A stretch of 64,000 bases of DNA from Alphaproteobacteria bacterium (GCA_009777955.1 WRKW01000001.1:21986-85985); one strand, 5' to 3'; shown: positions 8,557 through 64,000, numbered from the stretch's first letter. Numbers and translations: made by a program. Notes: generated by a model from the sequence alone, not told the origin.

Positions 8557-8576
8557 AGGTTTTAAAGTTTAGATAT

Positions 8577-9428
8577 ATGAAAAAAATATTAATTTCATTT
8601 TTATCGATTTTATCCATTTTTCTGTTGGTGTTGGGTGGGTCACCGACTGTGGCATATTCCGCTTTATGTAATGTTGATATGTTGGAAGCGGATGGTACCG
8701 GGCAGCAATTTATAAACCCAGACTATGCTTTATGCAGTGTGCATGCGTATAACATTGGACTTGGCCAGAATCCAACAGATGCCGCAAATCAAGAATTGAT
8801 GAGAGAGGTCATAAGGCTTAAAGCCACCATCATCGCCCAGCAAATGAAAAAGCAGTATGACTTTTTGGATGTGACTATAAAAAGGTTTGAAACCCAGTTG
8901 CAAAAAGCCGTTTTGGTATCAAGGCTAGAGGCTGCGGGCGGTGCTTCTTCGGACAGAACCGGTGGTGGTGGCGGACAGTCGGGCAGCAGTTTACAGGGGG
9001 TAAACCAGAATTGTGGTGGCTCTGGGTTGGCCGCGCTTGATTGTTTGTTGTCTAATAACAGGGAAATGCTGAATATACTAAGTCGTGGCAGTGTCAATAC
9101 CCAGATGCGTGATCAAATGATGCGTGATTACAGGGTTTATAGTGGTATTAATAATGGTCTTGGGGGATATAGAATCCAAGATCTCCAGTTCACAAAAGAG
9201 AGGCCTTCTGGGGCATCGACAGGTTGCGAAGCCATATTAAATACGCGGACTAATAATCTCAGTACGTCACAGGCAAGGGAATGTTTACAATTTATGCAAA
9301 CAGATATTAATAATGTTATTAGGGCAGAAACGCGAGTCGATAATCAAGCTAGGGCGGGAGGAATGAGTTTCCAGCCGGTGTATAATCAGCGGAATCAGCA
9401 GCAGAATCAGCCGGAGTCGGATGATTGA
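8577..9428 (+). CDS. Secreted protein, 283 aa, 6 Cys, helical, Gln/Asn-rich tail; probably co-transcribed with 6544-8556
   Basis: The track ORF begins at 8496, but MKKILISFLSILSIFLLVLGGSPTVAYS, a typical signal peptide, starts at ATG 8577, 20 nt after the upstream stop. No family recognised. Confidence 0.65.
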   Translation: MKKILISFLSILSIFLLVLGGSPTVAYSALCNVDMLEADGTGQQFINPDYALCSVHAYNIGLGQNPTDAANQELMREVIRLKATIIAQQMKKQYDFLDVTIKRFETQLQKAVLVSRLEAAGGASSDRTGGGGGQSGSSLQGVNQNCGGSGLAALDCLLSNNREMLNILSRGSVNTQMRDQMMRDYRVYSGINNGLGGYRIQDLQFTKERPSGASTGCEAILNTRTNNLSTSQARECLQFMQTDINNVIRAETRVDNQARAGGMSFQPVYNQRNQQQNQPESDD

Positions 9429-35857: not shown

Positions 35858-36865
35858 ATGAGGAAATTTTTTACATTCGCTTTCATCGCCATATTTTTTT
35901 GTTATTCCGGAACTTCTTTCGGCGACATGGGTGGAATCCGTATAGAATATTTTTCCGCAATTACCGGCGCGCAAATAGGATTTCCCGGCATATCAAGGTG
36001 GGAACTGGACAGATTGCGCCGTCAGGAATATACCAAATATCTTGAATTTATAAAAAGACGCGCTTTGGAACAAGATGATTCCACGGATCCGGTAATAGAA
36101 CCGGCACCTATGCCAAAATCGGATATGCCGCCGCCCCACATAGATTTTCCGGATGATCTTCCCCCTGTACCCCAACCATTGCCCCCGGCGGATATAAAGC
36201 CAATAGTTTATAAATCATATGAATGGTTGAAAATAAAAACTGATGAAAAACTTAACAATAAATCACCAAGAGAAGAAATAAAGCGTGCGGTTCTGGAAGT
36301 CGCTAGATTTATCAGCTTTTCTACAAATTATGCCGACGGATTGGCCACCGGCGATGACAGCTGGGCTATGCAGGGCATGCGTGAAGTATGGGTTGGTATA
36401 AAGCCCAAAGATGTAGAAGCCCGTCTTACCGAAGATACAAAAAGAAAAGTCGAAGTGTTGCGGGATTATGCTTTTAATCGCGGCGAAATGGTGTGCGCAG
36501 GCTATGCGACAGTGCTTTGGCAGGCTTTGCAGGAAAAGTTTCCCAATCTGCGGATAAGTTATATCACTAATAATGAACATGCATGGTTGCGTGTTACAGA
36601 GACCGCAATAGATATAGAACCCACGCTGAATTTTTATTATGTGAATATTGATGATAAAAGCGATCAGCCTGATTTGATAAAAAAGTATGAAGAAAATTTA
36701 TTCAGCAGGGAAGATGAAAGGCACAGCCGGAACATATTTGAAGATAAAGCACCCAGCGATGTCCAGCTTTATATTTATTCCGGGGTTCTTGATGCAATGA
36801 CACGGGATACCGGATTTTGGAAATCACGCCGCGATACCAGGTACAAGATGGCGAACGATAATTAA
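35858..36865 (+). CDS. Secreted transglutaminase-like (Cys-His-Asp fold) protein with a Pro-rich linker
   Basis: 335 aa. Signal peptide MRKFFTFAFIAIFFCYSGTSFG, linker PAPMPKSDMPPPHIDFPDDLPPVPQPLPPADIKP, and the core motif order GEMVCAGYATVL ... NEHAWLRV ... IDIEPT, which is the C / HAW / D-P-T arrangement of the transglutaminase-like superfamily. Confidence 0.6.
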   Translation: MRKFFTFAFIAIFFCYSGTSFGDMGGIRIEYFSAITGAQIGFPGISRWELDRLRRQEYTKYLEFIKRRALEQDDSTDPVIEPAPMPKSDMPPPHIDFPDDLPPVPQPLPPADIKPIVYKSYEWLKIKTDEKLNNKSPREEIKRAVLEVARFISFSTNYADGLATGDDSWAMQGMREVWVGIKPKDVEARLTEDTKRKVEVLRDYAFNRGEMVCAGYATVLWQALQEKFPNLRISYITNNEHAWLRVTETAIDIEPTLNFYYVNIDDKSDQPDLIKKYEENLFSREDERHSRNIFEDKAPSDVQLYIYSGVLDAMTRDTGFWKSRRDTRYKMANDN

Positions 36866-40651: not shown

Positions 40652-42838
40652 TTACTGTGTGATTGTACATGTACTACCAACCCATGTGCCGCTTTTATTT
40701 TGACACCACATTTCATCCATAAAATTGTCTTCGCTTGCACTATTACTTGTTACTGTACCTCTAGTGACGCTTAAACAGGTTTTTGAAATAGATCTGCATG
40801 CATCTCTTGCGATAGATTGGGGGCGCGCATCATCTTGTTTCCCGCCACTATTCTGGTTTAAACATGTTATAACATCCATGACGCAGTTTTCAGCATGACT
40901 TGCGATTACTTCATCTTGTTTAGTTTTTATTTGAAAAAATACACGTTTCAAAAATTCTTTTGTTCCCATGTTATCTGGCTTGAATACTCTTCTGTTTGCT
41001 GGACCTCTAAATGATACATTTTGGCATTTATTCAATACGGATATGCACATGCCATGACTTTTTCCATCTTTCTCGTTTACCCAACCAATTTTGTTCATCA
41101 TGGAAACCAACAACACAGATGCTTGAGGAATGTGAGGGTCAAACCCTTTAGCAGGATCCGATGGAGTAAGCTCATTAAGTTTATCCAACATATCATCTAT
41201 AGTACCAGCACCGTTTCCGCTTAGCCAAGGATTGGCAGATGTTCTACTTGTTCCATAACTCCAGACTTTATAAATTCCTTCGCTGGCAGGCGATGTAACA
41301 GTATCAAAATTACCTGGCATACTTCCCGGCACAAGAGCTCCATTAACTATGAATTTACCTGTCGGATCAAGGCAGTTTTCATAATCGCTGCCACAAACGA
41401 AATCATTCTGCATACAGGCATCAAGTGCGTTTACACAACCTTTCATATCATACATATTCTTGCTTTGTGCAACTGCAAGACGTGCGCGTTCCAATACTGT
41501 CTTTGCATTTTTTACAGTCCGGCGCATATTGGTGTTCGCATCGTCCAGACTGCGTTCGTATACTATGCATTGGCGGTCGATTTCAAGATCGTACGAATTG
41601 GAAAGTATTGTAGTGTCGACACCCTGGCGGCGACAATTTTCAAGAACAGACCGTTTGCATTGGGTAGACGCGCTTTTGTACAGTTCCGCCCCGCGCATAT
41701 TTATAATGTTGCCCCCCCCGCCGAAATTAAACAAAGAGCCAAGGTCGAAACCAAAATCAGAATCAAACGACATCTCAAAATCCAGTGACAGACCTTCGTC
41801 TGAAAATGTCGCGCTGGTCGGCTTTAAATCAAGAACCAACCTTCCAATGCGTGCTATATCGGCCGCATTCTGTGTGGAATCCACGGTGCCGGCCATTGCT
41901 GCTTCGGCTTCTGTTGCGCTGAACAGACTTATGACTTCATCTTTGGTAAGGCCGATATATTGTATTTTACGCGCAACATCTTGTAATTCTTCGGTGGCTT
42001 GTTTAAGGGTACTTTCCAGATTTCTGTATTTTGTTACGCTGGCACTGCATGAACAACGACCCTGGTTGTCATCAAGCACCGCGCAGTATCCATCCATACA
42101 TGAAAAATATTGTGCCCGACAGAAATCTGACAGCTGTGCAATTTCTTCCATTGTGGGTCCGGACATCTGCATTTGTCCCTCTGCACTGCGTGCAGTGCTA
42201 TTGCCAAGGCTGCCGCCGCCTATGCTGCTGTTCCTGCGTATCGGTGTGCCGCGGGCAATCCCACTGCGTTCAGTATTTGCCGGGGTATAAAGAGATCCGC
42301 CGGCGGCTTGGGTAACACCGGAACGCGCCGTATTTACGTTTTGTATTGGTTGTCTGGGGGTGGTTGCCTGTGCCGTTGGTGCGTTTTGCGCCGGTACAGC
42401 CTGTGCCCCGCCGGCCGCACTGCGCATGGCGGATGCAGATCCGCCCGTTGCCATTGCACGGGATGTTTGGGCACCCGAACCCTGGGCATTTATTATATTT
42501 CCAGCGGTAGTTACAGGAACCGCAGAACGCGAAGCCACAGCACGTGTTTGTACTGTGTTCCCCGATCTATCCGCTGGGCGTGTCGCACCCTGAACACCGG
42601 GCACCGCACCGCCACCCCGTGCCACATTGCGATTGATTGTCGCACGTGGATTAATATTTACAGGTTTTGCCGCAACCGGGGCAGTGGATGTTGATGCAGA
42701 TTCAAGCTCTGCCGTTTCTTCTATGGGTTCAACTTCGTCCGCGTATTCATCGGCATACCCGAAATATTGGGCGGGCGAAATCTCTGCAACCGCAGGAAAT
42801 GCAAGCAGTCCAAGCATAGCGAACAAATATTTTTTCAT
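40652..42838 (-). CDS. Large secreted Cys-rich protein with an Arg/Ala/Gly/Ser/Thr-rich N-terminal linker (paralog of 6544-8556)
   Basis: 728 aa. Signal peptide MKKYLFAMLGLLAFPAVAE, about 200 aa of low complexity, then FCRAQYFSCMDGYCAVLDDNQGRCSCS, helical segments, KGCVNALDACMQNDFVCGSDYENC, and C-terminal WCQNKSGTWVGSTCTITQ. 20 Cys by my count. Confidence 0.75.
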   Translation of the reverse strand: MKKYLFAMLGLLAFPAVAEISPAQYFGYADEYADEVEPIEETAELESASTSTAPVAAKPVNINPRATINRNVARGGGAVPGVQGATRPADRSGNTVQTRAVASRSAVPVTTAGNIINAQGSGAQTSRAMATGGSASAMRSAAGGAQAVPAQNAPTAQATTPRQPIQNVNTARSGVTQAAGGSLYTPANTERSGIARGTPIRRNSSIGGGSLGNSTARSAEGQMQMSGPTMEEIAQLSDFCRAQYFSCMDGYCAVLDDNQGRCSCSASVTKYRNLESTLKQATEELQDVARKIQYIGLTKDEVISLFSATEAEAAMAGTVDSTQNAADIARIGRLVLDLKPTSATFSDEGLSLDFEMSFDSDFGFDLGSLFNFGGGGNIINMRGAELYKSASTQCKRSVLENCRRQGVDTTILSNSYDLEIDRQCIVYERSLDDANTNMRRTVKNAKTVLERARLAVAQSKNMYDMKGCVNALDACMQNDFVCGSDYENCLDPTGKFIVNGALVPGSMPGNFDTVTSPASEGIYKVWSYGTSRTSANPWLSGNGAGTIDDMLDKLNELTPSDPAKGFDPHIPQASVLLVSMMNKIGWVNEKDGKSHGMCISVLNKCQNVSFRGPANRRVFKPDNMGTKEFLKRVFFQIKTKQDEVIASHAENCVMDVITCLNQNSGGKQDDARPQSIARDACRSISKTCLSVTRGTVTSNSASEDNFMDEMWCQNKSGTWVGSTCTITQ

Positions 42839-53496: not shown

Positions 53497-54123
53497 TTAT
53501 CTTGTCACAGGAGAAATTCTTATTTCAACACGACGGTTCATAAGTCGTCCTATGTTCGTCTGATCTGATATAGGCCGTGCGCTGCCCCTTCCCACAACGA
53601 ACATGCGGACTGGTTTTACTTTGTGTTGAGCCATGAATAAAGCCACGCGTTCCGCCATGTCAAAACTGAACGCGATTGCAGAGTTTTGATCGCGCATGGC
53701 ATCGGAATAGCCAGCTATTTCAATATAAGTCCGGTCGTATTTCGCCAGGACTTTGGAAAGTTGGTTCAGGGTGTCGGCACCGTCACTGGAAATATCCGGA
53801 TGATCAAGCGACATGAATGCGTCGCGCACCATGACAACCAACGCGTCTCCGCCTATGCGGGTAATCTGAATCCCCGGTTTTCGTAAAGAATCCGAAAGTT
53901 CTATTTCCAATGCGGACATATAGGTCGCGACTTCTTGCTGTTCAAGTGTTTTGCCGCCGGCACCCAAATAAATAGGTTTTTTTGCTACCTTTGATGTTTC
54001 CGTCATTGCCCCAAAGCTTGCGCCTTTTAAGATGGTATCCCAGGTTCCGCGTTCCGGTGTTTTGTATCCGCCGCAAGAGCAGAGCATGGTTAACAAAGCA
54101 CAGAGTATAGATATTTTTTTCAT
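53497..54123 (-). CDS. OmpA/MotB-domain peptidoglycan-associated lipoprotein
   Basis: 208 aa. MKKISILCALLTMLCSCGG is a lipobox-like sequence. The C-terminal IEIAGYSDAMRDQNSAIAFSFDMAERVALFM....VGRGSARPI......RLMNRRVEIRI is the OmpA-C-like motif set. Confidence 0.8.
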   Translation of the reverse strand: MKKISILCALLTMLCSCGGYKTPERGTWDTILKGASFGAMTETSKVAKKPIYLGAGGKTLEQQEVATYMSALEIELSDSLRKPGIQITRIGGDALVVMVRDAFMSLDHPDISSDGADTLNQLSKVLAKYDRTYIEIAGYSDAMRDQNSAIAFSFDMAERVALFMAQHKVKPVRMFVVGRGSARPISDQTNIGRLMNRRVEIRISPVTR

Positions 54124-54124
54124 T

Positions 54125-54619
54125 TTATTTCACCACGAATGTTACTTTGTTTTTTTCATCACGCTTGCAATTTTCGGCGGGCAGTCCTTCGTAAAAGTCG
54201 TTTATCCGGATGTCTGTGACCCAATCGAAATGTTGTGTCGCAGCCCAAGAGCAGTCGGCAAAGCTGACACCATGAAGATTAATTTGAAAAACACTGCCCT
54301 CCTGTTCGGGAAAAAGGTCGAATTCACTTGCTATGGATATCGCGGCACCAGTTTTCAGCGCGCCCATTTTTATAAGATAACCGACAGATATTCCAGTATA
54401 GTTGTTTTTTCCGGCGAATAAAAGTCGGCTGTTGCGCGCGATATCTTTAAGATCTTCTGCTGCTATCATACGATCCTTGCGAACCTGTACAGATTGATAC
54501 ACTTGGAATGTTCCGGCAATCATAATCGCACCCAGAGCCATGACACCAACAACTTCTATCAAAGATCTGCCGCTTTCAGCTGTATGAGATGTAAAGCGTG
54601 ATATATTGTTTTTAATCAT
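54125..54619 (-). CDS. Type IV pilin / pseudopilin-like protein (atypical prepilin leader)
   Basis: 164 aa. Leader MIKNNISRFTSHTAESG, then RSLIEVVGVMALGAIMIAGTF with Glu at +5 after the Gly. This is followed by an amphipathic helix, a beta-rich body and a C-terminal Cys pair (..FADCSW....AENCKRD) resembling a pilin D-region. The stop lies 1 nt from the next gene's start. Confidence 0.5.
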   Translation of the reverse strand: MIKNNISRFTSHTAESGRSLIEVVGVMALGAIMIAGTFQVYQSVQVRKDRMIAAEDLKDIARNSRLLFAGKNNYTGISVGYLIKMGALKTGAAISIASEFDLFPEQEGSVFQINLHGVSFADCSWAATQHFDWVTDIRINDFYEGLPAENCKRDEKNKVTFVVK

Positions 54620-56214: not shown

Positions 56215-56362
56215 AATCTATTCTCTTTTTTATCTGGAAAATGATAGCAGATAAAAAGAAAGTGTAAAGTGAAAAAGTGGAAAACTGTCAGGTTATTAGA
56301 CCAGATGCCAAAACCCGTCATAGCTTCGTCGTCGTTGTTGTAAAAGTCAATTAATTATAAAC

Positions 56363-56390
56363 CAAACGGCTCTCTTAACGAGAGCCGTTC
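56363..56390 (-). terminator. Hairpin terminator after the VirB10-like gene
   Basis: On the minus strand: AACGGCTCTCG-ttaa-GAGAGCCGTT followed by TGGTTTAT, about 35 nt after the stop. The same hairpin module occurs at 40441-40465 and 61353-61372. Confidence 0.6.
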
Positions 56391-56423
56391 AGGTTATAAT
56401 TCTGTCTGACAGTATCGGGACAA

Positions 56424-58901
56424 TTACAATATCGGTGGGAAGCAGTCGCCGTCGCCGGATGCAGGACAGCAAGAACCAGTGGGTGAATCGGGGCTGGTAA
56501 CGCTTGGGTCGAATACTTCACCCATGCTTGCACAACAGCCTTCATGATCCGGTGGGCTTCCGTCATCACAGCTTATACCCATAGAAACAGCGGGTGGTGG
56601 CGGTGGTGGTTTTTCAAATGGGTTTTTCAGCATGGTGCCGGCATCATTATATTGCAGTCCCAAAATCTGTTGATTATATTCCTGGGAACTCGGGGCCAAT
56701 ATTTGACCGCTTTGTGTGGTTATTCCGCCACGATTGCTTAAATCTTGCCAATAAGTGTTATATGCGGCTTGGGTTCTGCCCTGGTACATGTTTGATTTGC
56801 ACCAGAATTCCGCAGCCCGATAATCCAGGCCTTTTGCTTGTAATTGAGCTGCATCAAGTGCAACTTCGCCGGTATTGTTGCCATTATTATCTGTTTCACA
56901 AACGCCTTGCATGCTGGTGGTAAACGCGCGAACCTGTCCCATCCATTCTTCGGGGTTGTTTGACATTTTCAGTTGGTTGCTTGGATTTACATAAGGTCTG
57001 TAAAATTCGCTGGGGGCATGGATTGCACATTTTTTATTTTCGATACCTTCCTCGCCGCATGTTACTACCAGATCGGTTGGCGAAAATACTGTTATTCTGG
57101 TTCCGGCTGCGATAGAGAATGGCGGGGTGGTATTTTCCAACATATCCATGGTAAGTTTTTGCACAACCTTGTTCCAGGTGGATATTATTTCCTGTTTTGC
57201 AAGTTCGCTGGAACGAACTTGTCCGGACTGTGTCACTGTATTGTTATCAAGATCAATCTGATTCACGAACCTGTCCGATATAGGCGCGATAAGGTTAACG
57301 GCCGCAGGAACCACAGCTGTTATCATGGGCATAAGCATACTTTCTATATAGTCTGTGGTTCCGTATCCTGGCACTCCGGCACGACCCTGGCTGTCGGCGG
57401 AAAACGGTTCTTGATCGCCTGCAAAATTAAATTCCACGCCATCCGGTCGTACAAATCGGTACCATTTTATATCCATTCGTCCTATGGATCTGTATGGCCC
57501 TGGCAGTTCGCCCGTCATGAAACCCAACATCATGGTTCCGGCCGGAACTATTATTGTGCGGCCGTTATCGGAATATACGTGGCGATCGACAGTTGCTGTG
57601 ACCGGCAGATGCGACATGCGCTTTGGATCCGCGCGAATTTCTGAAACGATTGTCGCCGGTATAGGCTTGAACTGGCGCAGGACAAATGTACGGTCGTGTG
57701 GAACGCTGGATACGGTCGCTTCGGCACCTATGGAAGATGGCAAAAGACTGCTGACTGTTCTTTGTTCTCTCATTTCTATACGGGTGGCTTCGCCTGCCGC
57801 CGGGGTTGGGGCTGATGATTGTTGCGCCCTGTTTATTGTGCGACCGCTTCTTGCGCTGGAAAGATTTGGCAGGGCAAGATTTGCAGTAACACTGCGTGCA
57901 CCGATACGTTCTGAATCAGAGCCGATTGTCTTTGATTTATTCTTTATGTCATAAATCAGACCAGTATCCGGATTGTATTCGCCCGTGGGATTATTGCAAT
58001 CTCTGTCACTGAACGGATGGTACATATACCGACCGCCGTCTGCACGAATCCATCCAGAATGTCTTCCAGATAAATTATATCCAGCAAATGCGAATTCGTA
58101 ACACAGCTCTGCCGCTGGTGTAGCATCAATGATTACATCATTGGAAACTGGGGCTTGGGGACGGGGTTCCGGCACAGGCAACGGTTCTGGTTCGAATTCG
58201 GGTTCAAATTCTTGTTCGTACTCTGGTTCGAAAGGCAAATCTTCTTCAAAAGTAAGATCCGGTTCCAATGAATCAAAAACAGGGTCGATTTCTTCAAAAA
58301 TAAATGTTGGTTCCGGTTCTGTTATGCTGAACGGTTCTGTGTTTTCTATATTCGTTAATGTTTCCGGTTGGCGGGCGGGTATATTTTCATTTTTTGATTC
58401 TTTCGCCGATAACAGAACTGGTAACTTTTCCATTTCCGACATGCTTGCCGGTTGGGTTGCCGAATGATATATTATCTGGATTTCCGCACCAGTATCTTTC
58501 AGCGGAACATCCGGTTTGAATTCCAATGTTATGTTGCATGGAACTTTTGGCGAAATTACCCCCATGTTAGTGCAAGTGGAACGCTGGGTCAGCCCATGAG
58601 AATCGGGATCTTCCAATCCGGCGATTTTAACATCTGCAATCTTTACATCCGTTGTTGCTGAAACTTCGATTCTTTGGGTTCTGGTATCGCCGACCGTGAC
58701 ATCGCGCCATTCTATTTCAGTCGTATCCAGCACAATACCGATTTTTACAGCGGTGGTTGTTCTTTGCGTTTTTTTCGGACTGGATAATACTAGCAAAAGT
58801 AAAATCACTACTACCAGAAACGCCGCGAACAAAAGCAACCATTGCACATGAACAGGCAACTGTTGTCTAAGATTTGTGAAAAATTCTTTAAGTTTGCTCA
58901 T
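56424..58901 (-). CDS. virB10: VirB10/TrbI-family type IV secretion core protein with an extra N-terminal module and a Cys/Pro-rich C-terminal extension
   Basis: 825 aa. N-terminal TM WLLLFAAFLVVVILLLLVL, acidic/Pro-rich EPEFEPEPLPVPEPRPQAP, and TrbI-like core IPATIVSEIRAD..VTATVDRHVYSDNGRTIIVPAGTMMLGFMTG...GRMDIKWYRFVRPDGVEF...SQGRAGVPGY...AGTRITVFSPTDLVV. A tail of about 212 aa with 10 Cys and PPPPPP follows. Confidence 0.8.
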   Translation of the reverse strand: MSKLKEFFTNLRQQLPVHVQWLLLFAAFLVVVILLLLVLSSPKKTQRTTTAVKIGIVLDTTEIEWRDVTVGDTRTQRIEVSATTDVKIADVKIAGLEDPDSHGLTQRSTCTNMGVISPKVPCNITLEFKPDVPLKDTGAEIQIIYHSATQPASMSEMEKLPVLLSAKESKNENIPARQPETLTNIENTEPFSITEPEPTFIFEEIDPVFDSLEPDLTFEEDLPFEPEYEQEFEPEFEPEPLPVPEPRPQAPVSNDVIIDATPAAELCYEFAFAGYNLSGRHSGWIRADGGRYMYHPFSDRDCNNPTGEYNPDTGLIYDIKNKSKTIGSDSERIGARSVTANLALPNLSSARSGRTINRAQQSSAPTPAAGEATRIEMREQRTVSSLLPSSIGAEATVSSVPHDRTFVLRQFKPIPATIVSEIRADPKRMSHLPVTATVDRHVYSDNGRTIIVPAGTMMLGFMTGELPGPYRSIGRMDIKWYRFVRPDGVEFNFAGDQEPFSADSQGRAGVPGYGTTDYIESMLMPMITAVVPAAVNLIAPISDRFVNQIDLDNNTVTQSGQVRSSELAKQEIISTWNKVVQKLTMDMLENTTPPFSIAAGTRITVFSPTDLVVTCGEEGIENKKCAIHAPSEFYRPYVNPSNQLKMSNNPEEWMGQVRAFTTSMQGVCETDNNGNNTGEVALDAAQLQAKGLDYRAAEFWCKSNMYQGRTQAAYNTYWQDLSNRGGITTQSGQILAPSSQEYNQQILGLQYNDAGTMLKNPFEKPPPPPPAVSMGISCDDGSPPDHEGCCASMGEVFDPSVTSPDSPTGSCCPASGDGDCFPPIL

Positions 58902-58940
58902 TTTTCATAAGGCGCAATATGACAAGTCTGTCATATTGCG

Positions 58941-60437
58941 TTATTGTATTCTTACCACATGACAGGCGACCGATTGGAACTTTTGCAATTGGTTGCAAAG
59001 CGTCTGAGCCTGATCTATGCCCGCCAACGGGCCGATACGCAGACGGTACAGTCGGGCAGAGCTGTTACCACCACCCAAATCGCCAACACCTTGTTCATCT
59101 ATTGCGAAGAACACTTTATCCCTGTAAGGAGTCAAGATTCCCGCGCCCTCATCACCGCTGAACTTTGCAAGCATCGTAGTCCAGTAATCATTAAGTGCCT
59201 TTACCGATGTGTCGGATCGCAATTCTACCGCGACACCAGCCTGATTGCTTGTAATCAGCGGTATGTTTGTTTGTGGCAGATATGATCCCGCAGTATTGCG
59301 TTGTTGTGGTACCATGTTCAGACCCGGGCTGCCCAAAGGCATAGTTGTTGGCGCACCGTGCATTTGTTGCATCGGCATCATCGGAACTTGTTGCATTCCG
59401 TACATCTGCTGCATCTGCATCATTCCACCATCCATCACAGGCATGCCAAAATAGCCAACATTGTTAAGTGATTGGGACGAATGCATGCTGCGTGCGACAT
59501 TTGCTTCTGCCAGGGCCATTACGCTTGCGGTATCTGCGATCAAGAATGGCTTTTCACGTTTCTTGATGCATACAAGCCGTTGACCGCTGCGCAGAACCAT
59601 ATCGCCGACCGCTTCGACGATAAGCAGGCGACCGTGTTCTCCATCAGTCCTGAACCCTACTGGACTTTCACCGCCTTCGATCAATATTGATACAACGGGT
59701 CGCTGTGTCATAGCGATGACTTTGTCTCCGAAATCGATATAGGTGAATATGCGGTCGCGCCATACGCGTTCCGGGGCAATAACATAATCGTCGGGATTTG
59801 GAACGAATATATCCAGATCGAACCGGAATTCTGATGGATCTATTTTCATTGTTTTTATCCAGCCATAATCTTCGCCGTCTGCCCCAATTGTATTGGTTCC
59901 GGCACCACTTTTTCTGGGAAATATTGAATTCATTCCGCCGCCGCTTGTTTGTCCGGCAGATGCAAAATTAACGGGCATGCTTGAATTGCCATCCAGTACA
60001 ACATCGACCTGGGTATATGTGATTTCCGATGAATTCGATGGTTCGGATCGCAAATAGAACAGGTATATGTTCCCGGATTTTCCGGTGACGATAAGGTTTG
60101 TGTCAGACCCCATATTATTTTCCAGCGGGGATATAAGCATTGTGCGACTGCCTTTTTGGACATCAAACTTGAACAGGCCATCACTTCCAATATCCCCCGC
60201 TTCAATCGCTTCCCCCTGGGGCAGATTTACCATGGTAACCATTCCAGTGCGCAGTTTTATTGGCAAGATTGTGCCAGAGCTCCAGGTAAGCCTTGCATAT
60301 CCGGGTTTCAGTGAACCGGCGGCCATGTTGGCTTCTGGGTGATCCCATGCCTCTTGGATATTTGCGTGCGCCTTTCCGATAAATATGGAAAAGCAAAACG
60401 CAAGGCACAAGGCGCAAAGCATAGATAGTTTTTTCAT
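58941..60437 (-). CDS. virB9: VirB9/TrbG/CagX-family type IV secretion core protein fused to a Met/Gln-rich linker and a SPOR-like domain
   Basis: 498 aa. Signal peptide MKKLSMLCALCLAFCFSIFIGKAHA. N-domain ..LPIKLRTGMVTMVNLPQGEAIE...TNLIVTGKSGNIYLFYL. C-domain IAPERVWRDRIFTYIDFGDKV..RPVVSILIEGGESPVGFR..LLIVEAVGDMVLRSGQRLVCIKK. Then MMQMQQMYGMQQVPMMPMQQM, and finally ..LYRLRIGPLAGIDQAQTLCNQLQKFQSVACHVVRIQ. Confidence 0.8.
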   Translation of the reverse strand: MKKLSMLCALCLAFCFSIFIGKAHANIQEAWDHPEANMAAGSLKPGYARLTWSSGTILPIKLRTGMVTMVNLPQGEAIEAGDIGSDGLFKFDVQKGSRTMLISPLENNMGSDTNLIVTGKSGNIYLFYLRSEPSNSSEITYTQVDVVLDGNSSMPVNFASAGQTSGGGMNSIFPRKSGAGTNTIGADGEDYGWIKTMKIDPSEFRFDLDIFVPNPDDYVIAPERVWRDRIFTYIDFGDKVIAMTQRPVVSILIEGGESPVGFRTDGEHGRLLIVEAVGDMVLRSGQRLVCIKKREKPFLIADTASVMALAEANVARSMHSSQSLNNVGYFGMPVMDGGMMQMQQMYGMQQVPMMPMQQMHGAPTTMPLGSPGLNMVPQQRNTAGSYLPQTNIPLITSNQAGVAVELRSDTSVKALNDYWTTMLAKFSGDEGAGILTPYRDKVFFAIDEQGVGDLGGGNSSARLYRLRIGPLAGIDQAQTLCNQLQKFQSVACHVVRIQ

Positions 60438-60511
60438 ACTCTTTCCTTTAACAAATGTTTCAAGAGAGTTTCAGACATCCGGTATATACGGAAATTTATG
60501 CCTTTTGCTCT

Positions 60512-61192
60512 CTAAAAATCCAGCGGATCCCTGCCACCTTCAACCGTATATTCCGACACAAATATACCCAGCGGGTTTTCAAGACGACTTGCCCATTTTA
60601 TGGTATTATCGTCATTACGGTTAATTTTGAAATCTATTCCTATGATAATTGTATAATCTTTTCGGCCTATTTGTAAAGCATTATCCTCGCAGAAATATTT
60701 GAAATTTACTTCGTATGTCGAATTTCCCCTTTCGCCGCGTTTCAAAAGACTTACGGGGCGATCCGCAAATTCGACCCGGCACACCAGCCTTGAATCCGGC
60801 ACGTTGGTCATTATCGACTGGAACATCCTTGTCTGTGTGAATGCGTTATAGACTTCGGAACTGGACCATATGTTGACCATTCCGTTTTCACCCGTCCACC
60901 ATTTCCGTCGCATGACATTGATATTTGGTATGATTTCATTGCGGACTTTTATATATTCCCTTACAAAGTTTTCCTTGAATTCTTCGATATTCGCATCATT
61001 CGGAAAATAAGATCGCACGGTTATATGGCTGTCTGCGCGTGGTTCAGTGGTAAGAATGAAAATTTGGGTTTTCGACAGGGGCAAAATGTTGGACAAAGTC
61101 ACGACCAGTGCGACAACGGTCGCGAGCGCGGTCGCGAACACGAATGTCAGGATTCTGGACATTAAAATAGGCGGTTCTATGGTATTCATCAC
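60512..61192 (-). CDS. virB8: VirB8/TrbF-family type IV secretion inner-membrane protein
   Basis: 226 aa. Single N-terminal TM ILTFVFATALATVVALVVTL, FVREYIKVRNEI (family-typical F...Y...re.y) and C-terminal ENPLGIFVSEYTVE (NPLGF.V..Y motif). Confidence 0.7.
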   Translation of the reverse strand: MMNTIEPPILMSRILTFVFATALATVVALVVTLSNILPLSKTQIFILTTEPRADSHITVRSYFPNDANIEEFKENFVREYIKVRNEIIPNINVMRRKWWTGENGMVNIWSSSEVYNAFTQTRMFQSIMTNVPDSRLVCRVEFADRPVSLLKRGERGNSTYEVNFKYFCEDNALQIGRKDYTIIIGIDFKINRNDDNTIKWASRLENPLGIFVSEYTVEGGRDPLDF

Positions 61193-61282
61193 TCCCCCAT
61201 GCGGGGAGTGTAGTAAAAACCACTAACCCTTGGCAAGTGCTTTTTTAATTGCCGGATGTGCTTCAAATCATAATCCACAGCG

Positions 61283-61372
61283 GCAGGCATGACGATGGTG
61301 TCGTGCTTTACGCGACGCATTAATTGTTCATTCAAAAAAACGAAAGGCATGATGGCTCTCTTGCGAGAGCAG
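61283..61372 (+). repeat. Family C repeat plus hairpin between the giant repeat-protein gene and the VirB8-like gene
   Basis: GGCAGGCATGACGATGGTGTCGTGCTTTACGCGACGCATTAATTGTTCATTCAAAAAAACGAAAGGCATGATGGCTCTCTTGCGAGAGC. Confidence 0.8.
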
Positions 61373-61383
61373 TTCGGGTTATA

Positions 61384-64000
61384 TCATGTCAATTGTTTAT
61401 CGATCATTTGGATTTGTTTACTAACTTCTTCCTGCTCTTTAATAGATTGCTTTTGGCTAGTTTTCTTTTCTTTTTTCAACTTATTAATTTTAAGTTGTGA
61501 TGCCTTGGCAGCTTTGGCTTTTTCGGCCTTTTCTTTTTTGATTTCTGCTTCTAATTCGTCGTCTTTTTTCGTTCCTTTCTCTTTTACTATTTCCATCTTT
61601 TGTGTCAGCCTTCTTTTCGCTTCTTTGATAAGTTCCTCTTTATGCTTAGACACTTCTTTTTTAACAATGTTTTTCGATGCTTCGATGTTGTATCTGGCAC
61701 TGTCGTTATCCATTATCTGTTTAATAGTTAAGCTTTTAGCATGGTTGATTCCCGGTTGATGTTTTTTTAGTTCCGTAATTGTTTTTGGATCTGTTACCCG
61801 CATCCTTTGTTCAGCAAGTTGGTTGATCATTTCAGGGGTCGGATTTTGACCCAGCATCTCTAACAATTCGTTCAGAAGTTTTTCAACAGTCTGAAAATTC
61901 TTTACATTATTTAATACTTCCATTAAGTTTCCGGCTTGTTTTATCTGTTCCAGCGTAAGGCTTTGGATATTTACACCATCTATATCCAATGTCTTTTTTA
62001 ATTTATCCAGTGTTTCTCTTTCATTGTCCGAGAATTGTCCTATACCAAATAATTTCCTTAACTTTTCGGCGCGTTCAGATTCTTCTTTCGAAAGATTCGG
62101 GTCGTCTTTCATGGCAAGTATGTTTTTTAATGCTTCCGATATATTTGCGGCTTTTTTACGATCCCAGTCCCCATCTCTCAGTTGAATTTTTAATTCTTCA
62201 GCGTGTTTCAGGTCTTCTGATGTAAGAGATCCAGATATGCTTCCTTTATTCAGTATTCCTTTTAATTCTTTTTTTACCGTTTGTTCAAAATCATCTAAAT
62301 GATGCTCGCTTAATTCATTTCTTAATTTTTCGGCATCAATTTCAACACGTTGAAGTTGCTTCGGTGTAAGGCCGGATCTGTTCCCTTTTCTTAAAACTTC
62401 TTCCAATTCTTTCAGTTCTTTTAATTTTTTGTCCAGCTGTATTTGCTTAATGCGATTGTTTTCTTCGATAGATTCCCTTTTGGGATCATCCAGGATGGGT
62501 TTTTCATCTGGGTTATCTATATCTGGGGCATCAACCCTGTCATCTGGTGTTAATGGCTCATCTTCGGATATTTCACTTTGGCTATCTATATCGTCGGATT
62601 TATCGGTGCCCGGTTCTGGCATACCGTCTATATCTGGGGCATCAACCCTATCATCTGGTGTTAATGGCTCATCTTCGGATATTTCACTTTGGCTATCTAT
62701 ATCGTCGGATTTATCGGTGCCCGGTTCTGGCATGCCGTCTATATCTGGGGTATCAACCCTGTCATCTGAGATTATAATAGGGATAGATGAGTCCCCACTA
62801 TCATTTGAGATTACAATAGGAATAGGTAATGGAACAGGTGGTTCTTTATCATTATCGGTTTCAACGTTTACGTTTTTTCTCCATATCTCAGAAAATTTTT
62901 GGATTTTTGTTGTCTTATAAACTTTTTCTTTTTCCTCTTCTGAAAGTTGCGCAAAGGCAGTTTCATAAATTTTTCCGATTTCAGGATTCAGATCTTTACC
63001 CATATTCGCAAAATTTTCAATATAATCTTTATCATCAAAAGCATCCTCTCCTATAAGATGATCGAATAGCATTGGTTTGTTATTTACCATTGCGCATATG
63101 TCATCAATGTAATATCCGAATTTGTCGTTATATAAGATGATAATATCTTTCCAATCTTTCGAAAGTTCCGGTTCAGCAGTTTTTTCCACACTTTTTTCCC
63201 AAAAATATTCGGAATCAAAAAGTTTGTTCTTTTTTTCGATCTCTTTTTTCAAATTCTCGATAGCCTTTTTGTCACCGGCCATTGCATCATCAAACAATTC
63301 TTTTGCAGATTTATTTTTGCCGGGATTATCGAAAAATTTCTTTATCTCGGCGGCTTTATCTTTTAACTTGTTACCAATTTTTTTGGCTTCATTTATACCC
63401 CTATCAATTAAACCGTCGGGTTGTTTTTTTTCTGTTTGATCATGCTGAGAGTCCTCTTCGTTTGTTTTGTCGTCTATGTCTCCGGGGCCTATGCGATATT
63501 TGTTATTTTCTGGGTCTTTGGGCCATTTATTCACACTGGTCATTATCATGTTAAAAAATTGCTTAAATTCTTTTTTTTCAGATTTTTCAGATGCATCGTC
63601 TTCTGCACGCCAGCTTTTCAGAAAACGGTGAATTCTATTGTGGTTGCTGGTTATCTGTATCGCACCGTTAAATACTTCGTATCCATAGTCATCCCCAGAG
63701 AAATTTATATATATAGCATTGGGATAAATATGTATTTCTGATTTTTTATCTTTCAAGTCAGATTTTAATTGATTCATAAACTTTTGATAAGGAATATTTT
63801 CGTAATGTTTTTGAATCTTTCTATCGGTATCATCTTCTTGGCGAACTTTTTCCATAATTTTATAAAGATCAACATTGCCATCTTTTTGGGCTTCCAAAAC
63901 TTTTTGTATAAAATCCCTTGTTCGCCCGGGGGCAAAAGTCAATTTTTTTCCGGAAGTTTTGGCTTCTAAATGTGTGCATATTGATACGACTTCGTCAAAA
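61384..64000 (-). CDS. Very large Lys/Glu/Asp-rich repeat-containing protein (N-terminus probably outside the window)
   Basis: The track ORF is 852 aa from TTG 63942, but the frame stays open to base 64000 (..FDEVVSICTHLEAKTSGKK-LTFAPG..). There is no TM or signal peptide in the visible part. It has acidic 37-aa tandem repeats, recurring '(K/T)(P/L)EQ..(L/I)xxAExL' helical units and a poly-Lys/Glu C-terminus. Confidence 0.7.
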   Translation of the reverse strand, partial: FDEVVSICTHLEAKTSGKKLTFAPGRTRDFIQKVLEAQKDGNVDLYKIMEKVRQEDDTDRKIQKHYENIPYQKFMNQLKSDLKDKKSEIHIYPNAIYINFSGDDYGYEVFNGAIQITSNHNRIHRFLKSWRAEDDASEKSEKKEFKQFFNMIMTSVNKWPKDPENNKYRIGPGDIDDKTNEEDSQHDQTEKKQPDGLIDRGINEAKKIGNKLKDKAAEIKKFFDNPGKNKSAKELFDDAMAGDKKAIENLKKEIEKKNKLFDSEYFWEKSVEKTAEPELSKDWKDIIILYNDKFGYYIDDICAMVNNKPMLFDHLIGEDAFDDKDYIENFANMGKDLNPEIGKIYETAFAQLSEEEKEKVYKTTKIQKFSEIWRKNVNVETDNDKEPPVPLPIPIVISNDSGDSSIPIIISDDRVDTPDIDGMPEPGTDKSDDIDSQSEISEDEPLTPDDRVDAPDIDGMPEPGTDKSDDIDSQSEISEDEPLTPDDRVDAPDIDNPDEKPILDDPKRESIEENNRIKQIQLDKKLKELKELEEVLRKGNRSGLTPKQLQRVEIDAEKLRNELSEHHLDDFEQTVKKELKGILNKGSISGSLTSEDLKHAEELKIQLRDGDWDRKKAANISEALKNILAMKDDPNLSKEESERAEKLRKLFGIGQFSDNERETLDKLKKTLDIDGVNIQSLTLEQIKQAGNLMEVLNNVKNFQTVEKLLNELLEMLGQNPTPEMINQLAEQRMRVTDPKTITELKKHQPGINHAKSLTIKQIMDNDSARYNIEASKNIVKKEVSKHKEELIKEAKRRLTQKMEIVKEKGTKKDDELEAEIKKEKAEKAKAAKASQLKINKLKKEKKTSQKQSIKEQEEVSKQIQMIDKQLT
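62516..62768. repeat. 111-bp tandem repeat (2.3 copies) inside the giant gene
   Basis: Units start at 62516, 62627 and 62738 (TCTATATCTGGGGCATCAACCCT..), differ by a few substitutions and encode DRVD(T/A)PDIDGMPEPGTDKSDDIDSQSEISEDEPLTPD on the minus strand. Confidence 0.9.

What the first reader, a model, noticed from the sequence alone, without database searches (positions are those of the whole stretch)
56424..61192. Stand-alone VirB8-VirB9-VirB10-like operon with no ATPase, VirB6 or VirB2-type pilin gene in 64 kb
Three consecutive minus-strand genes, separated by gaps of 74 and 39 nt, carry family-diagnostic motifs:
- VirB8: TM helix, then ..ENPLGIFVSEYTVE.
- VirB9/TrbG/CagX: ..IFTYIDFGDKV..VSILIEGGESPVGFR..MVLRSGQRLVCIKK.
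- VirB10/TrbI: Pro-rich spacer, then ..VTATVDRHVYSDNGRTIIVPAGTMMLGF..RMDIKWYRFVRPDGVEF..

The B8->B9->B10 order is canonical for P-type, F-type (TraE/K/B) and Dot/Icm-type (DotI/H/G) systems. Here the operon ends in a hairpin and the next gene is dnaX. Nothing resembling VirB4, VirB11, VirD4, VirB6, VirB2, VirB3 or VirB5 is present among any ORF in the window. All three subunits also carry non-canonical additions, described in separate findings.

Two readings fit:
- One island of a scattered, Rickettsiales-rvh-style T4SS.
- An envelope-spanning core complex used without the usual motor. This would be new.
Basis: partly seen in the sequence, partly recalled or inferred. Interest (0 to 1): 0.85.

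Follow-up and report, generated by a model that had tools for sequence, protein, structure and literature searches.

The report
Stand-alone VirB8-VirB9-VirB10 secretion scaffold operon
A tiny-genome gut bacterium (order Rs-D84, relatives of Candidatus Enterousia) keeps only the three envelope-spanning scaffold genes of a type IV secretion machine as a strongly conserved operon of its own, and it is still open whether the motor genes lie elsewhere in the genome or the scaffold now works without them.

Summary
Three minus-strand genes (60512-61192, 58941-60437, 56424-58901) pass the Pfam cut-offs for VirB8, CagX/VirB9 and TrbI/VirB10. Their predicted folds match solved T4SS core complexes. A promoter-like site and a terminator hairpin bracket them. 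No other T4SS gene lies in the window or in 20 kb of added flank.

The window comes from an Rs-D84 alphaproteobacterium (Ca. Enterousia relatives, genomes under 1 Mb). The same trio stands alone, between changing housekeeping neighbours, in all 80 related species genomes and 80 metagenome contigs examined. VirB9 is as conserved as LpxD.

In a rough tree these operons group with four other stand-alone lineages, next to complete chromosomal T4SSs of other gut Alphaproteobacteria. The lineage lost VirB7. VirB11 looks deleted in place.

I put a dispersed T4SS at about 0.48 and a motor-less, repurposed core at about 0.40. The rvh analogy is not supported in detail. Either way this is an undescribed variant of a T4SS.

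The parts
61207..61295 (-). Promoter-like sigma-70 hexamer pairs upstream of VirB8. A hairpin plus T-run at about 61335-61375 ends the upstream 972-aa gene.
   Evidence: Consensus scan and direct reading of the sequence. These are consensus matches only, not shown to function.
60512..61192 (-). VirB8-like bitopic inner-membrane protein (226 aa from the GTG, 225 aa from the ATG at 61189). It has an N-terminal TM helix at about aa 8-26 and a periplasmic VirB8 domain.
   Evidence: Pfam VirB8 37.4 bits against a cut-off of 23.2. Profile hits to solved VirB8/TrwG/TraE structures, best E 1e-9. TM helix predicted. Orthologue adjacent to VirB9 in all 80 species loci.
58941..60437 (-). VirB9-like protein (498 aa). 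It has a signal peptide, VirB9 N- and C-terminal domains (aa 30-295), a disordered Gln/Met/Pro-rich linker (aa 320-398) and a C-terminal SPOR-like domain.
   Evidence: Pfam CagX 67.3 bits against a cut-off of 34.2. AF2 pLDDT above 90 for both VirB9 domains. Foldseek matches X. citri VirB9 (5e-17), TrwF, DotH, TraK, CagX and TraO. Residues 200-325 are 83-99% identical, by 25-residue block, across 81 sequences.
58944..59240 (-). SPOR-like, probably peptidoglycan-binding, C-terminal domain of VirB9 (aa 400-498).
   Evidence: Pfam SPOR 20.2 bits, just under the cut-off of 21. Confident AF2 model with four strands and three helices, a mixed alpha/beta topology I read as SPOR-like; no fold match to a SPOR structure was obtained. 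The tail motif is shared with VirB9 of complete T4SSs. Peptidoglycan binding is inferred.
56424..58901 (-). VirB10-like protein (825 aa). It has a short cytoplasmic tail, a TM helix (aa 17-39), an ASH/PapD-like Ig domain, an acidic/Pro-rich spacer, a small beta domain (aa 271-330), a TrbI barrel with two long helices, and a Cys-rich C-terminal extension (aa 615-825).
   Evidence: Pfam TrbI 59.8 bits against a cut-off of 35. NCBIfam VirB10 and ComB10 hits fall far below their equivalog cut-offs. AF2 model. Foldseek matches CagY, TrwE, X. citri VirB10 and TraF/3jqo.
58401..58736 (-). ASH/PapD-like Ig domain in the periplasmic N-terminal part of VirB10 (aa 56-167).
   Evidence: AF2 pLDDT about 90. 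Foldseek matches the CEP192 and HYDIN PapD-like domains. Weak ASH/Ig Pfam hits in the VirB10 of L167, L170 and L173. No ASH hit was returned at E <= 0.01 for the giant VirB10 of the complete relative L150.
57069..57665 (-). TrbI/VirB10 barrel (aa 413-611). It includes the two long helices (aa 516-549 and 564-589) that correspond to the outer-membrane 'antenna' of solved VirB10s.
   Evidence: The helices and the loop between them are 79% identical across 73 sequences. Outer-membrane insertion is inferred from the solved homologues.
56362..56392 (-). Intrinsic-terminator-like hairpin (13-bp stem, 7 G-C pairs) after the VirB10 stop codon. dnaX starts 150 nt further on.
   Evidence: Consensus match only.

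Best explanation
**What the genes encode.** The three genes encode the envelope-spanning scaffold of a P-type (VirB-like) type IV secretion system.
- VirB8 sits in the inner membrane.
- VirB9 forms the periplasmic and outer-membrane ring. It carries an extra SPOR-like domain that probably ties the ring to peptidoglycan.
- VirB10 is anchored in the inner membrane, crosses the periplasm and probably lines an outer-membrane pore with its two conserved long helices.

**Where the operon came from.** It is chromosomal, transcribed on its own and vertically inherited throughout the order Rs-D84 (Ca. Enterousia and relatives). It descends from the complete chromosomal T4SS family still found in other gut Alphaproteobacteria.

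**How it most likely works.** My most likely reading is that it is still the core of a working T4SS whose VirB4-type ATPase, and any other inner-membrane parts, are encoded at unlinked sites. On that reading these partner-dependent bacteria use it to exchange macromolecules with a host or partner cell.

**Shown versus inferred.**
- Shown: family and fold membership, operon autonomy, conservation, evolutionary origin, and local absence of the other parts.
- Inferred: ring and pore assembly, peptidoglycan anchoring, the existence of unlinked ATPase genes, and the substrate.
For: **Family and fold:**

**Own transcription unit:**

**Lineage identity:** VirB9 orthologues at 62-73% identity in 80 species genomes named Ca. 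Enterousia, Alphaproteobacteria or Rickettsiales MAGs. The order has genomes under 1 Mb and a partner-dependent lifestyle (PMC12306168).

**Trio always together with changing neighbours:**
- dnaX in the window.
- secE-nusG and yidC on a 797-kb contig.
- rpsB-tsf in L171.
- ATP-synthase genes and secD in L173.

**Purifying selection:**
- VirB9 is 62-73% identical, against 64-71% for LpxD in the same loci.
- The VirB9 C-terminal domain is 83-99% identical by block.
- The VirB10 barrel and long helices are 62-84% identical.

**Origin:** a rough neighbour-joining tree puts all stand-alone lineages in one clade, sister to complete T4SSs.

**For dispersal specifically:**
- VirB4 is the only ubiquitous T4SS protein (PMC4027160).
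- In 17 loci of the sister clade a DEAD-box helicase, not the VirB4 half, lies directly upstream of VirB8'-B7-B8-B9-B10. VirB11 is seen downstream in the 15 of these loci that extend far enough. So splitting has occurred in the closest relatives.
- VirB8 and the inner-membrane anchor of VirB10 are retained. The VirB10 N-terminal tail is better conserved than the adjacent Ig domain (40% against 25%).
Against: **No motor or inner-membrane partner seen locally.** No VirB4, VirB11, VirD4, VirB2, VirB3 or VirB6 was found in any of the following:
- About 84 kb of this genome, roughly a tenth of it.
- Within 10 kb of the trio in 80 species genomes.
- 80 metagenome contigs.
- Four other stand-alone lineages.

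**Signs of loss rather than relocation.**
- VirB11, which directly follows VirB10 in the sister clade, is missing in every stand-alone lineage.
- In L171 and L173 a small secreted protein abuts VirB10. In the complete relative L150 its homologue follows VirB11. This looks like deletion of VirB11 in place.
- The VirB7 lipoprotein is present next to VirB8 in the complete relatives and in L167. It is undetectable in the Rs-D84 loci.
- L170 has VirB9-VirB10 with no VirB8 within 10 kb upstream.

**Weak evidence from the literature.** The one held genome study of Rs-D84 reports pili and competence genes for another lineage. It reports no secretion apparatus for Rs-D84.
Confidence: 0.48

Rival explanations
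1. Motor-less, repurposed core. The Rs-D84 ancestor kept only the VirB8-VirB9-VirB10 scaffold of its T4SS and lost VirB4, VirB11, VirD4, the pilus and VirB6. The complex now works without a dedicated ATPase. Possible roles are a peptidoglycan-anchored inner-to-outer-membrane conduit or large pore for uptake or exchange, or an envelope tether or attachment structure.
For: - Both flanks of the ancestral cluster are gone in all stand-alone lineages.
- VirB11 looks deleted in place between VirB10 and a retained small accessory gene.
- VirB7 is lost.
- L170 retains only VirB9-VirB10 locally.
- There are clade-specific additions: an ASH/PapD-like Ig domain in VirB10 across the stand-alone clade, and in Rs-D84 a Cys-rich tail with invariant cysteines.
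- The loop between the two long VirB10 helices is unusually conserved (79%).
- Rs-D84 genomes are reported to lack standard transporters for sugars, amino acids and peptides, and no secretion system is reported for them (PMC12306168).
- From established knowledge, VirB7/9/10 core complexes of pKM101 assemble without the ATPases (3jqo is among the fold matches).
Against: - No T4SS without VirB4 is known (PMC4027160).
- VirB8 and the VirB10 membrane anchor normally serve the inner-membrane complex, and both are kept.
- The closest relatives show that the cluster can split while keeping VirB11.
- Whole-genome absence was not tested. Only about 9% of this genome was seen.
- The B11-deletion argument rests on one complete relative, L150.
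Confidence: 0.4
2. Decaying remnant. The trio is what is left of a dead conjugative or effector T4SS and has no function.
For: Genome reduction is pervasive in Rs-D84. The other T4SS genes are missing locally.
Against: - All three ORFs are intact in the 73 to 81 orthologues per gene that could be aligned. HMMs find VirB9 in all 80 further metagenome contigs, VirB8 in 77 and VirB10 in 54 of these often short contigs.
- VirB9 is as conserved as LpxD. Its C-terminal domain is 83-99% identical by block.
- The operon survives many rearrangements of its flanks.
- Genomes under 1 Mb with about 90% coding density do not carry 4.7 kb of junk across an order.
Confidence: 0.03
3. ComB-like DNA-uptake system. 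As in Helicobacter, a comB8-9-10-type operon works with a separately encoded ComB2-4 set to import DNA. In bacteria that cannot make nucleotides this would serve as a nutrient source.
For: - ComB10 and CagY are the only solved VirB10 relatives detectable by sequence.
- NCBIfam ComB10 gives 49.5 bits.
- Rs-D84 lacks nucleotide biosynthesis.
- From established knowledge, the split-operon layout resembles H. pylori comB.
Against: - The ComB10 score is far below the family cut-off (49.5 against 300) and lower than the generic VirB10 score.
- VirB8 and VirB9 are closest to Bartonella, Brucella, R388 and X. citri proteins.
- The nearest relatives by sequence are alphaproteobacterial T4SSs with VirB11, and in Microvirga with a relaxase and VirD4.
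- No competence genes are reported for Rs-D84.
- This reading also requires an unseen VirB4/ComB4.
Confidence: 0.05

Closest known systems
Outer-membrane core complex plus VirB8 of P-type (VirB/VirD4, MPF-T) T4SSs: R388 TrwG/F/E, pKM101 TraE/O/F, Xanthomonas citri VirB8/9/10
   Same: The same three protein families in the same gene order. Both VirB9 domains, the VirB10 barrel and the long VirB10 helices are present.
   Different: - No VirB7 lipoprotein, VirB4, VirB11, VirD4, VirB2/3/5/6 or relaxase at the locus.
- VirB9 has a SPOR-like tail.
- VirB10 has an ASH/PapD-like Ig domain and a 210-aa Cys-rich tail.
- Sequence identity to solved proteins is 15-27%.
Chromosomal T4SS of other gut Alphaproteobacteria MAGs ('group 1', e.g. 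loci L109, L150, L152) and the Microvirga plasmid pMVF16-3 T4SS (NZ_CP069357.1)
   Same: Closest relatives by sequence: VirB9 is 38-43% identical to group 1 representatives and about 32-33% to the Microvirga VirB9. They share the VirB9 C-terminal SPOR-like tail. Some group 1 loci are also flanked by housekeeping genes.
   Different: - These relatives carry VirB4, VirB7, a second VirB8 and VirB11. Microvirga also has VirB2, VirB3, VirD4 and a MobA relaxase.
- VirB10 in group 1 is a giant (2332 aa) with beta-flower repeats.
Rickettsiales vir homologue (rvh) T4SS
   Same: A vertically inherited chromosomal T4SS of genome-reduced, host-dependent Alphaproteobacteria, split over several loci (established knowledge; PMC10847448).
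   Different: - rvh keeps virB8-9-10-11-virD4 together and has duplicated B4, B8 and B9 and multiple B6 (established knowledge). Here B11 and D4 are absent from the locus.
- No paralogue was seen within the sequence examined.
- The Rickettsia VirB8 structure is a weaker match than the best VirB8 entry, 4mei.
- No rvh sequences were placed in a tree here.
Helicobacter pylori ComB DNA-uptake T4SS (comB6-10 and comB2-4 operons) and Cag CagX/CagY
   Same: A B8-B9-B10 operon separate from the ATPase operon (established knowledge). CagY and ComB10 are the only solved VirB10s detectable by sequence.
   Different: Scores are far below the ComB10 family cut-off. VirB8 and VirB9 are closer to alphaproteobacterial and plasmid systems. 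No ComB4 was seen.

Membership tests
Type IV secretion system (P-type / MPF-T) | VirB4-family ATPase, the only ubiquitous T4SS protein | tested here: inconclusive
   Absent from the window plus 20 kb of flank, from 80 species loci, from 80 metagenome loci and from 4 other lineages, by tblastn and profile HMM. Whole genomes could not be searched.
Type IV secretion system (P-type / MPF-T) | VirB8 (PF04335): bitopic inner-membrane protein with a periplasmic NTF2-like domain | tested here: met
   37.4 bits against a cut-off of 23.2. TM helix at aa 8-26. Profile hits to 11 solved VirB8/TrwG/TraE sequences.
Type IV secretion system (P-type / MPF-T) | VirB9 (PF03524) with N- and C-terminal beta-sandwich domains | tested here: met
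   67.3 bits against a cut-off of 34.2. Foldseek 5e-17 to X. citri VirB9. Domain TM-scores of 0.77-0.80 to the TrwF N-terminal domain and the TraO C-terminal domain.
Type IV secretion system (P-type / MPF-T) | VirB10 (PF03743): N-terminal TM anchor, Pro-rich spacer, C-terminal barrel with two-helix antenna | tested here: met
   59.8 bits against a cut-off of 35. TM helix aa 17-39, acidic/Pro-rich spacer, barrel and helices 516-549 and 564-589 in the model. Fold matches to the VirB10 C-terminal domains of CagY, TrwE, X. citri and TraF. The monomer model has low confidence in the helices.
Type IV secretion system (P-type / MPF-T) | VirB7 lipoprotein stabilising the outer-membrane core | tested here: not met
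   A 54-aa lipoprotein sits just upstream of VirB8 in most complete relatives and lies three genes upstream in L167. It has no detectable homologue in any Rs-D84 locus or in the window, even at E <= 10. Very short proteins can escape detection.
Type IV secretion system (P-type / MPF-T) | VirB11 and VirD4 ATPases, VirB2 pilin, VirB3, VirB5, VirB6 | tested here: inconclusive
   None found at the locus or in about 2.7 Mb of related sequence around it. The genome-wide status is unknown.
Rickettsiales rvh-type dispersed T4SS | virB8-virB9-virB10-virB11-virD4 kept as one cluster | tested here: not met
   VirB10 is followed by a terminator and dnaX here. In the related lineages it is followed by other housekeeping or small genes. 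There is no T2SSE or VirD4 hit.
Rickettsiales rvh-type dispersed T4SS | Duplicated VirB4/B8/B9, multiple VirB6, and phylogenetic affinity to rvh | not tested
   No paralogue was seen within the loci examined. No rvh sequences were available for a tree. The only indirect datum is that the Rickettsia typhi VirB8 structure scores 27 bits, against 41 for the best VirB8 entry, 4mei.
ComB DNA-uptake T4SS | ComB10 equivalog score; ComB2-4 and ComEC present | tested here: not met
   NCBIfam ComB10 gives 49.5 bits against a cut-off of 300. ComB4 and ComEC are not testable genome-wide.
SPOR-domain peptidoglycan-binding proteins (for the VirB9 tail only) | PF05036 match and RNP-like beta-alpha-beta-beta repeat fold | tested here: inconclusive
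   20.2 bits against a cut-off of 21. The confident AF2 domain at aa 400-498 has four strands and three helices. No SPOR structure appeared among the top whole-chain Foldseek matches.

The most novel reading that the evidence does not exclude
A whole order of genome-reduced gut Alphaproteobacteria, plus at least four other lineages that share the same ancestral event, has kept only the VirB8-VirB9-VirB10 scaffold of a type IV secretion system. In one lineage only VirB9-VirB10 is seen locally. On this reading the scaffold is used without VirB4 or any other T4SS ATPase, as a peptidoglycan-anchored, double-membrane-spanning channel or attachment device. This would be the first T4SS-derived machine that works without the universal VirB4 motor.
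Probability: 0.4. Interest if true: 0.88.

Novelty: new variant of a known kind. Interest (0 to 1): 0.62.

Why it matters
VirB4 is regarded as the one indispensable T4SS component. A scaffold-only system conserved across an order of bacteria with about 850 genes would show that the core complex can have a function of its own. It would also point to how these transporter-poor, partner-dependent gut bacteria feed or attach.

Even if the ATPases turn up elsewhere, three things remain:
- This is the first secretion apparatus noted for Rs-D84/Ca. Enterousia, a prevalent but uncultured gut lineage.
- It is a second, independent example beside Rickettsiales of a vertically inherited, fragmented T4SS.
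- It has an unusual architecture: no VirB7, a SPOR-like anchor on VirB9, and an Ig domain and a Cys-rich tail on VirB10.

The question can be settled with one HMM search of public complete genomes.

Tried and rejected
1. **VirB4 scan of species genomes.** I scanned the species-genome collection with a VirB4 alignment from the nearest complete systems. It did not recover even the known group 1 positives, so it is uninformative.
2. **Window orphans as divergent T4SS parts.** I tested the ORFs of 670, 310, 728, 459, 335, 335, 176 and 130 aa, and the 852-aa window part of the upstream 972-aa gene. None has a Walker A motif, a polytopic TM profile or a T4SS Pfam hit.
3. **The 1089-aa protein of L167 as VirB4 or VirB6.** It has one glycine-zipper-like hydrophobic stretch and no homologue in any other locus held. 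The single Walker-A-pattern match sits at residues 4-11, and no P-loop ATPase family was hit.
4. **Nearest intermediate lineages.** I looked for an adjacent VirB4 near P0123, P0124, P0140 and L173. All are flanked by housekeeping genes. The L167 contig starts just upstream of the operon, so its 5' side is unknown.
5. **Metagenome scan for L167-like contigs.** It returned only more Rs-D84-type loci.
6. **Literature.** Searches for 'Enterousia', 'Rs-D84', VirB8/9/10 without VirB4, incomplete T4SS in reduced genomes, and rumen/ciliate endosymbionts found no description of this operon. The 2023 Enterousia paper is not held. The supplements of PMC12306168 and PMC10847448 hold no T4SS presence table.
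7. **ComB membership and the decaying-remnant reading.** Both are rejected on scores and conservation.

Full report
**1. The observation**

The window holds three consecutive minus-strand ORFs at 60512-61192 (226 aa), 58941-60437 (498 aa) and 56424-58901 (825 aa).

All three pass Pfam's curated thresholds:

| Protein | Pfam family | Score (bits) | Cut-off (bits) |
|---|---|---|---|
| 226 aa | VirB8 | 37.4 | 23.2 |
| 498 aa | CagX/VirB9 | 67.3 | 34.2 |
| 825 aa | TrbI/VirB10 | 59.8 | 35 |

The NCBIfam equivalog models for VirB9, VirB10 and ComB10 are hit only far below their cut-offs. These are therefore divergent members, not orthologues of the model systems.

Single-sequence searches of PDB sequences find only CagY and ComB10 for VirB10, and nothing for VirB8 or VirB9. 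Profiles built from orthologues reach further:
- The VirB8 profile reaches eleven solved VirB8/TrwG/TraE sequences.
- The VirB9 profile reaches X. citri VirB9, R388 TrwF and pKM101 TraO.

AlphaFold models built with orthologue alignments give confident VirB9 N- and C-terminal domains (pLDDT above 90). They also give a VirB10 with the following layout:
- a TM helix (aa 17-39);
- an Ig-like domain (aa 56-167);
- a disordered acidic/Pro-rich spacer;
- a small beta domain;
- a barrel with two long helices (aa 516-549 and 564-589);
- a Cys-rich tail.

Foldseek matches VirB9 to X. citri VirB9 (5e-17), TrwF, DotH, TraK, CagX and TraO. It matches VirB10 to the C-terminal domains of CagY, TrwE, X. citri VirB10 and TraF. 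The N-terminal Ig domain matches ASH/PapD-like domains.

**2. Operon boundaries and the rest of the window**

A 13-bp-stem hairpin with a T-rich tail follows the VirB10 stop codon, and then comes dnaX. Upstream, the preceding gene ends in its own hairpin plus T-run, and promoter-like hexamers precede VirB8. The likelier VirB8 start is the ATG at 61189, behind GGGGGAG.

The window belongs to a 187-kb contig of ENA assembly ERZ27257348. Precomputed Pfam calls cover window -3.4 kb to +6.4 kb. They show housekeeping genes and several orphans, but no secretion ATPase. The housekeeping genes include:
- gyrA, mreB and mutS;
- the rplK-rpoC region;
- uppS, cdsA, rseP and yidC;
- tig, recR, lspA, fabZ, lpxD and skp;
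- an OmpA-like lipoprotein and dnaX.

The orphans have no Walker A motif, no polytopic membrane profile and no T4SS Pfam hit.

**3. Whose genome this is**

The VirB9-like protein has orthologues at 62-73% identity in 80 species-representative genomes. All are uncultured gut, rumen or termite Alphaproteobacteria, many named Candidatus Enterousia and a few labelled Rickettsiales. Ca. Enterousia belongs to the GTDB order Rs-D84 (PMC12306168). According to that paper:
- Members have genomes mostly under 1 Mb.
- They lack amino-acid, nucleotide and lipid biosynthesis and respiration.
- They lack standard transporters for sugars, amino acids and peptides.
- They are thought to depend on a partner organism.

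That paper reports type IV pili and competence genes for another lineage. It never mentions a secretion system for Rs-D84. No held paper describes this operon.

**4. The trio is a conserved, autonomous module**

tblastn shows VirB8, VirB9 and VirB10 in the same order in all 80 species loci, while the flanks differ. dnaX is adjacent only in the window and two relatives. On a 797-kb contig (GCA_964320355.1) the trio lies between secE-nusG and yidC.

VirB9 is as conserved as LpxD in the same loci: 62-73% identical against 64-71%. Conservation per region is as follows:

| Region | Identity |
|---|---|
| VirB9 residues 200-325 (by 25-residue block) | 83-99% |
| VirB10 barrel | 62-84% |
| VirB10 long helices and the loop between them | 79% |
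| VirB10 Ig domain | about 25% |
| VirB8 | 21-60% |

The trio is therefore functional, not a relic.

Profile HMMs for VirB2, B3, B4, B5-like, B6-like, B11, D4 and relaxase were built from the nearest complete systems. They find nothing in about 1.6 Mb of these loci or in a further 80 metagenome contigs, while the VirB8, VirB9 and VirB10 HMMs hit throughout.

**5. Where it came from**

An exhaustive search of 1.84 billion representative proteins finds only 469 relatives of this VirB9. The nearest ones outside Rs-D84 are 38-43% identical. They map to other gut Alphaproteobacteria MAGs, which I call 'group 1'.

| Group | Layout found |
|---|---|
| Group 1, about 30 species | Contiguous: VirB4, four further genes, VirB8', VirB7, VirB8, VirB9, a giant VirB10 (2332 aa in L150, with beta-flower repeats), VirB11 |
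| Group 1, 17 further loci | A DEAD-box helicase and other housekeeping genes lie directly upstream of VirB8'. The VirB4 half is unlinked or lost. VirB11 is seen downstream in the 15 loci that extend far enough |
| Microvirga plasmid pMVF16-3 (more distant) | Full conjugative set: MobA, VirB2, B3, B4, B7-B11 and VirD4 |

The C-terminal SPOR-like tail of VirB9 is shared with these complete systems.

**6. Other stand-alone lineages**

| Locus | Source | Layout |
|---|---|---|
| L171/L174 | MAG W7 | rpsB-tsf, then VirB8-B9-B10, then a 135-aa secreted protein |
| L173 | MAG Im510_bin77 | ATP-synthase genes, then VirB8-B9-B10, a 119-aa homologue of that protein, then secD |
| L170 | JGI metagenome | VirB9-VirB10 with no VirB8 within 10 kb upstream |
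| L167 | Logan assembly | 1089-aa protein, VirB7 lipoprotein, three VirB8 paralogues, VirB9, a VirB9-N-like protein, VirB10, then lspA. The contig begins just upstream |

A rough neighbour-joining tree of VirB9 puts Rs-D84 and these four lineages in one clade, sister to group 1. This suggests a single ancestral event.

Within that clade:
- VirB10 carries an ASH/Ig-like N-terminal domain.
- VirB7 survives only in L167.
- The small secreted protein that abuts VirB10 in L171 and L173 has its only other homologue directly after VirB11 in the group 1 locus L150. This suggests VirB11 was deleted in place. The inference rests on that one relative.

**7. How it most likely works**

By homology with solved core complexes:
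- VirB9 and the VirB10 barrel should form the periplasmic and outer-membrane ring.
- The two conserved VirB10 helices should line the outer-membrane pore.
- VirB10 should span the periplasm from its inner-membrane anchor.
- VirB8 should sit at the inner membrane.
- The SPOR-like tail on a flexible linker of about 80 residues probably pins the ring to peptidoglycan, and may make up for the missing VirB7.

All of this is inferred.

What drives the complex is open. Three points favour a dispersed T4SS:
- VirB4 is universal in T4SSs (PMC4027160).
- Cluster splitting is demonstrated in the sister clade.
- The inner-membrane elements are retained.

Several points favour a motor-less, repurposed core:
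- Both flanks of the ancestral cluster are lost in every lineage.
- VirB11 appears deleted in place.
- VirB7 is lost.
- L170 has only VirB9-VirB10 locally.
- There are clade-specific domain additions.
- The only genome study of the order is silent on secretion systems.

I rate the readings at about 0.48 and 0.40. A ComB-like uptake system (0.05) is a special case of the first. A dead remnant (0.03) is contradicted by the conservation data.

**8. What could not be done**

No tool allowed a whole Rs-D84 genome to be scanned. 

**9. Verdict**

Both readings remain open, but the rvh analogy does not hold in detail.
- This is a new variant of a known kind of system. It is undescribed for a prevalent gut lineage, and there is a substantial chance (about 0.4) that it is a T4SS core working without its universal ATPase.

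Noticed in passing
window 53497-54619 (-): Directly after dnaX, on the same strand, lie two almost abutting genes. One is a 164-aa protein with a type-IV-pilin-like leader (..SG|RSLIEVVGVMALGAI..). Its N_methyl and PilS hits are weak, both below the cut-offs. The other is an OmpA-family lipoprotein. The pair recurs next to skp-lpxD in several related genomes. No pilus machinery was seen in the window.
   Followed up: partly
window 61384-64000 (-), continuing beyond the window (972 aa in L001:6136-9054): A large, very acidic, Lys/Glu-rich protein lies immediately upstream of VirB8. It has a 111-bp tandem repeat (62516-62768, 2.3 copies, 97% identical). It has no homologue in any of the 80 related loci and no Pfam hit. 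It may be a lineage-specific surface or secreted protein.
   Followed up: partly
L150:11359-18357 (and other 'group 1' loci L093-L155): The closest complete T4SS relatives, in other gut Alphaproteobacteria MAGs, encode a giant VirB10 (2332 aa in L150). It has many 5-fold and 4-fold beta-flower repeats ahead of the TrbI barrel, reminiscent of CagY. In 17 loci this cluster is cut off from its VirB4 half by housekeeping genes.
   Followed up: partly
L085:12775-13122 and 65 other Enterousia loci: A 115-aa protein with no Pfam hit follows VirB10 by about 300 bp in 66 Enterousia loci and is about 70% identical among them. It is absent next to the trio in this window. It could be a lineage-specific partner or regulator.
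   Followed up: partly
L167:570-11153: An early-branching stand-alone lineage has an eight-gene operon: a 1089-aa protein, a VirB7-like lipoprotein, three VirB8 paralogues, VirB9, a 283-aa VirB9-N-like protein and VirB10. It is followed by lspA and has no ATPase in view. The contig starts just upstream.
   Followed up: partly
L170:9548-13566: In one lineage (JGI 3300037826) VirB9-VirB10 has no VirB8 within 10 kb upstream. A ribosome hibernation factor gene on the other strand directly precedes VirB9.
   Followed up: partly
window 6544-9428 (+), 40652-42838 (-), 35858-36865 (+): There are several orphan proteins with signal-peptide-like N-termini (670, 310, 728 and 335 aa). The first is Cys-rich. 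None has a Pfam hit. They are candidates for the 'hypothetical membrane-bound proteins' noted for this order.
   Followed up: no
window 56427-57059 (-), VirB10 aa 615-825: The C-terminal 210 residues of VirB10 end in an invariant Cys-rich motif: C778, CC789-790, CC811-812 and C820-F-P-P. It is modelled with pLDDT of about 85. The long tail is specific to Rs-D84: 122 aa in L171 and about 20-40 aa in L167, L170 and L173.
   Followed up: partly
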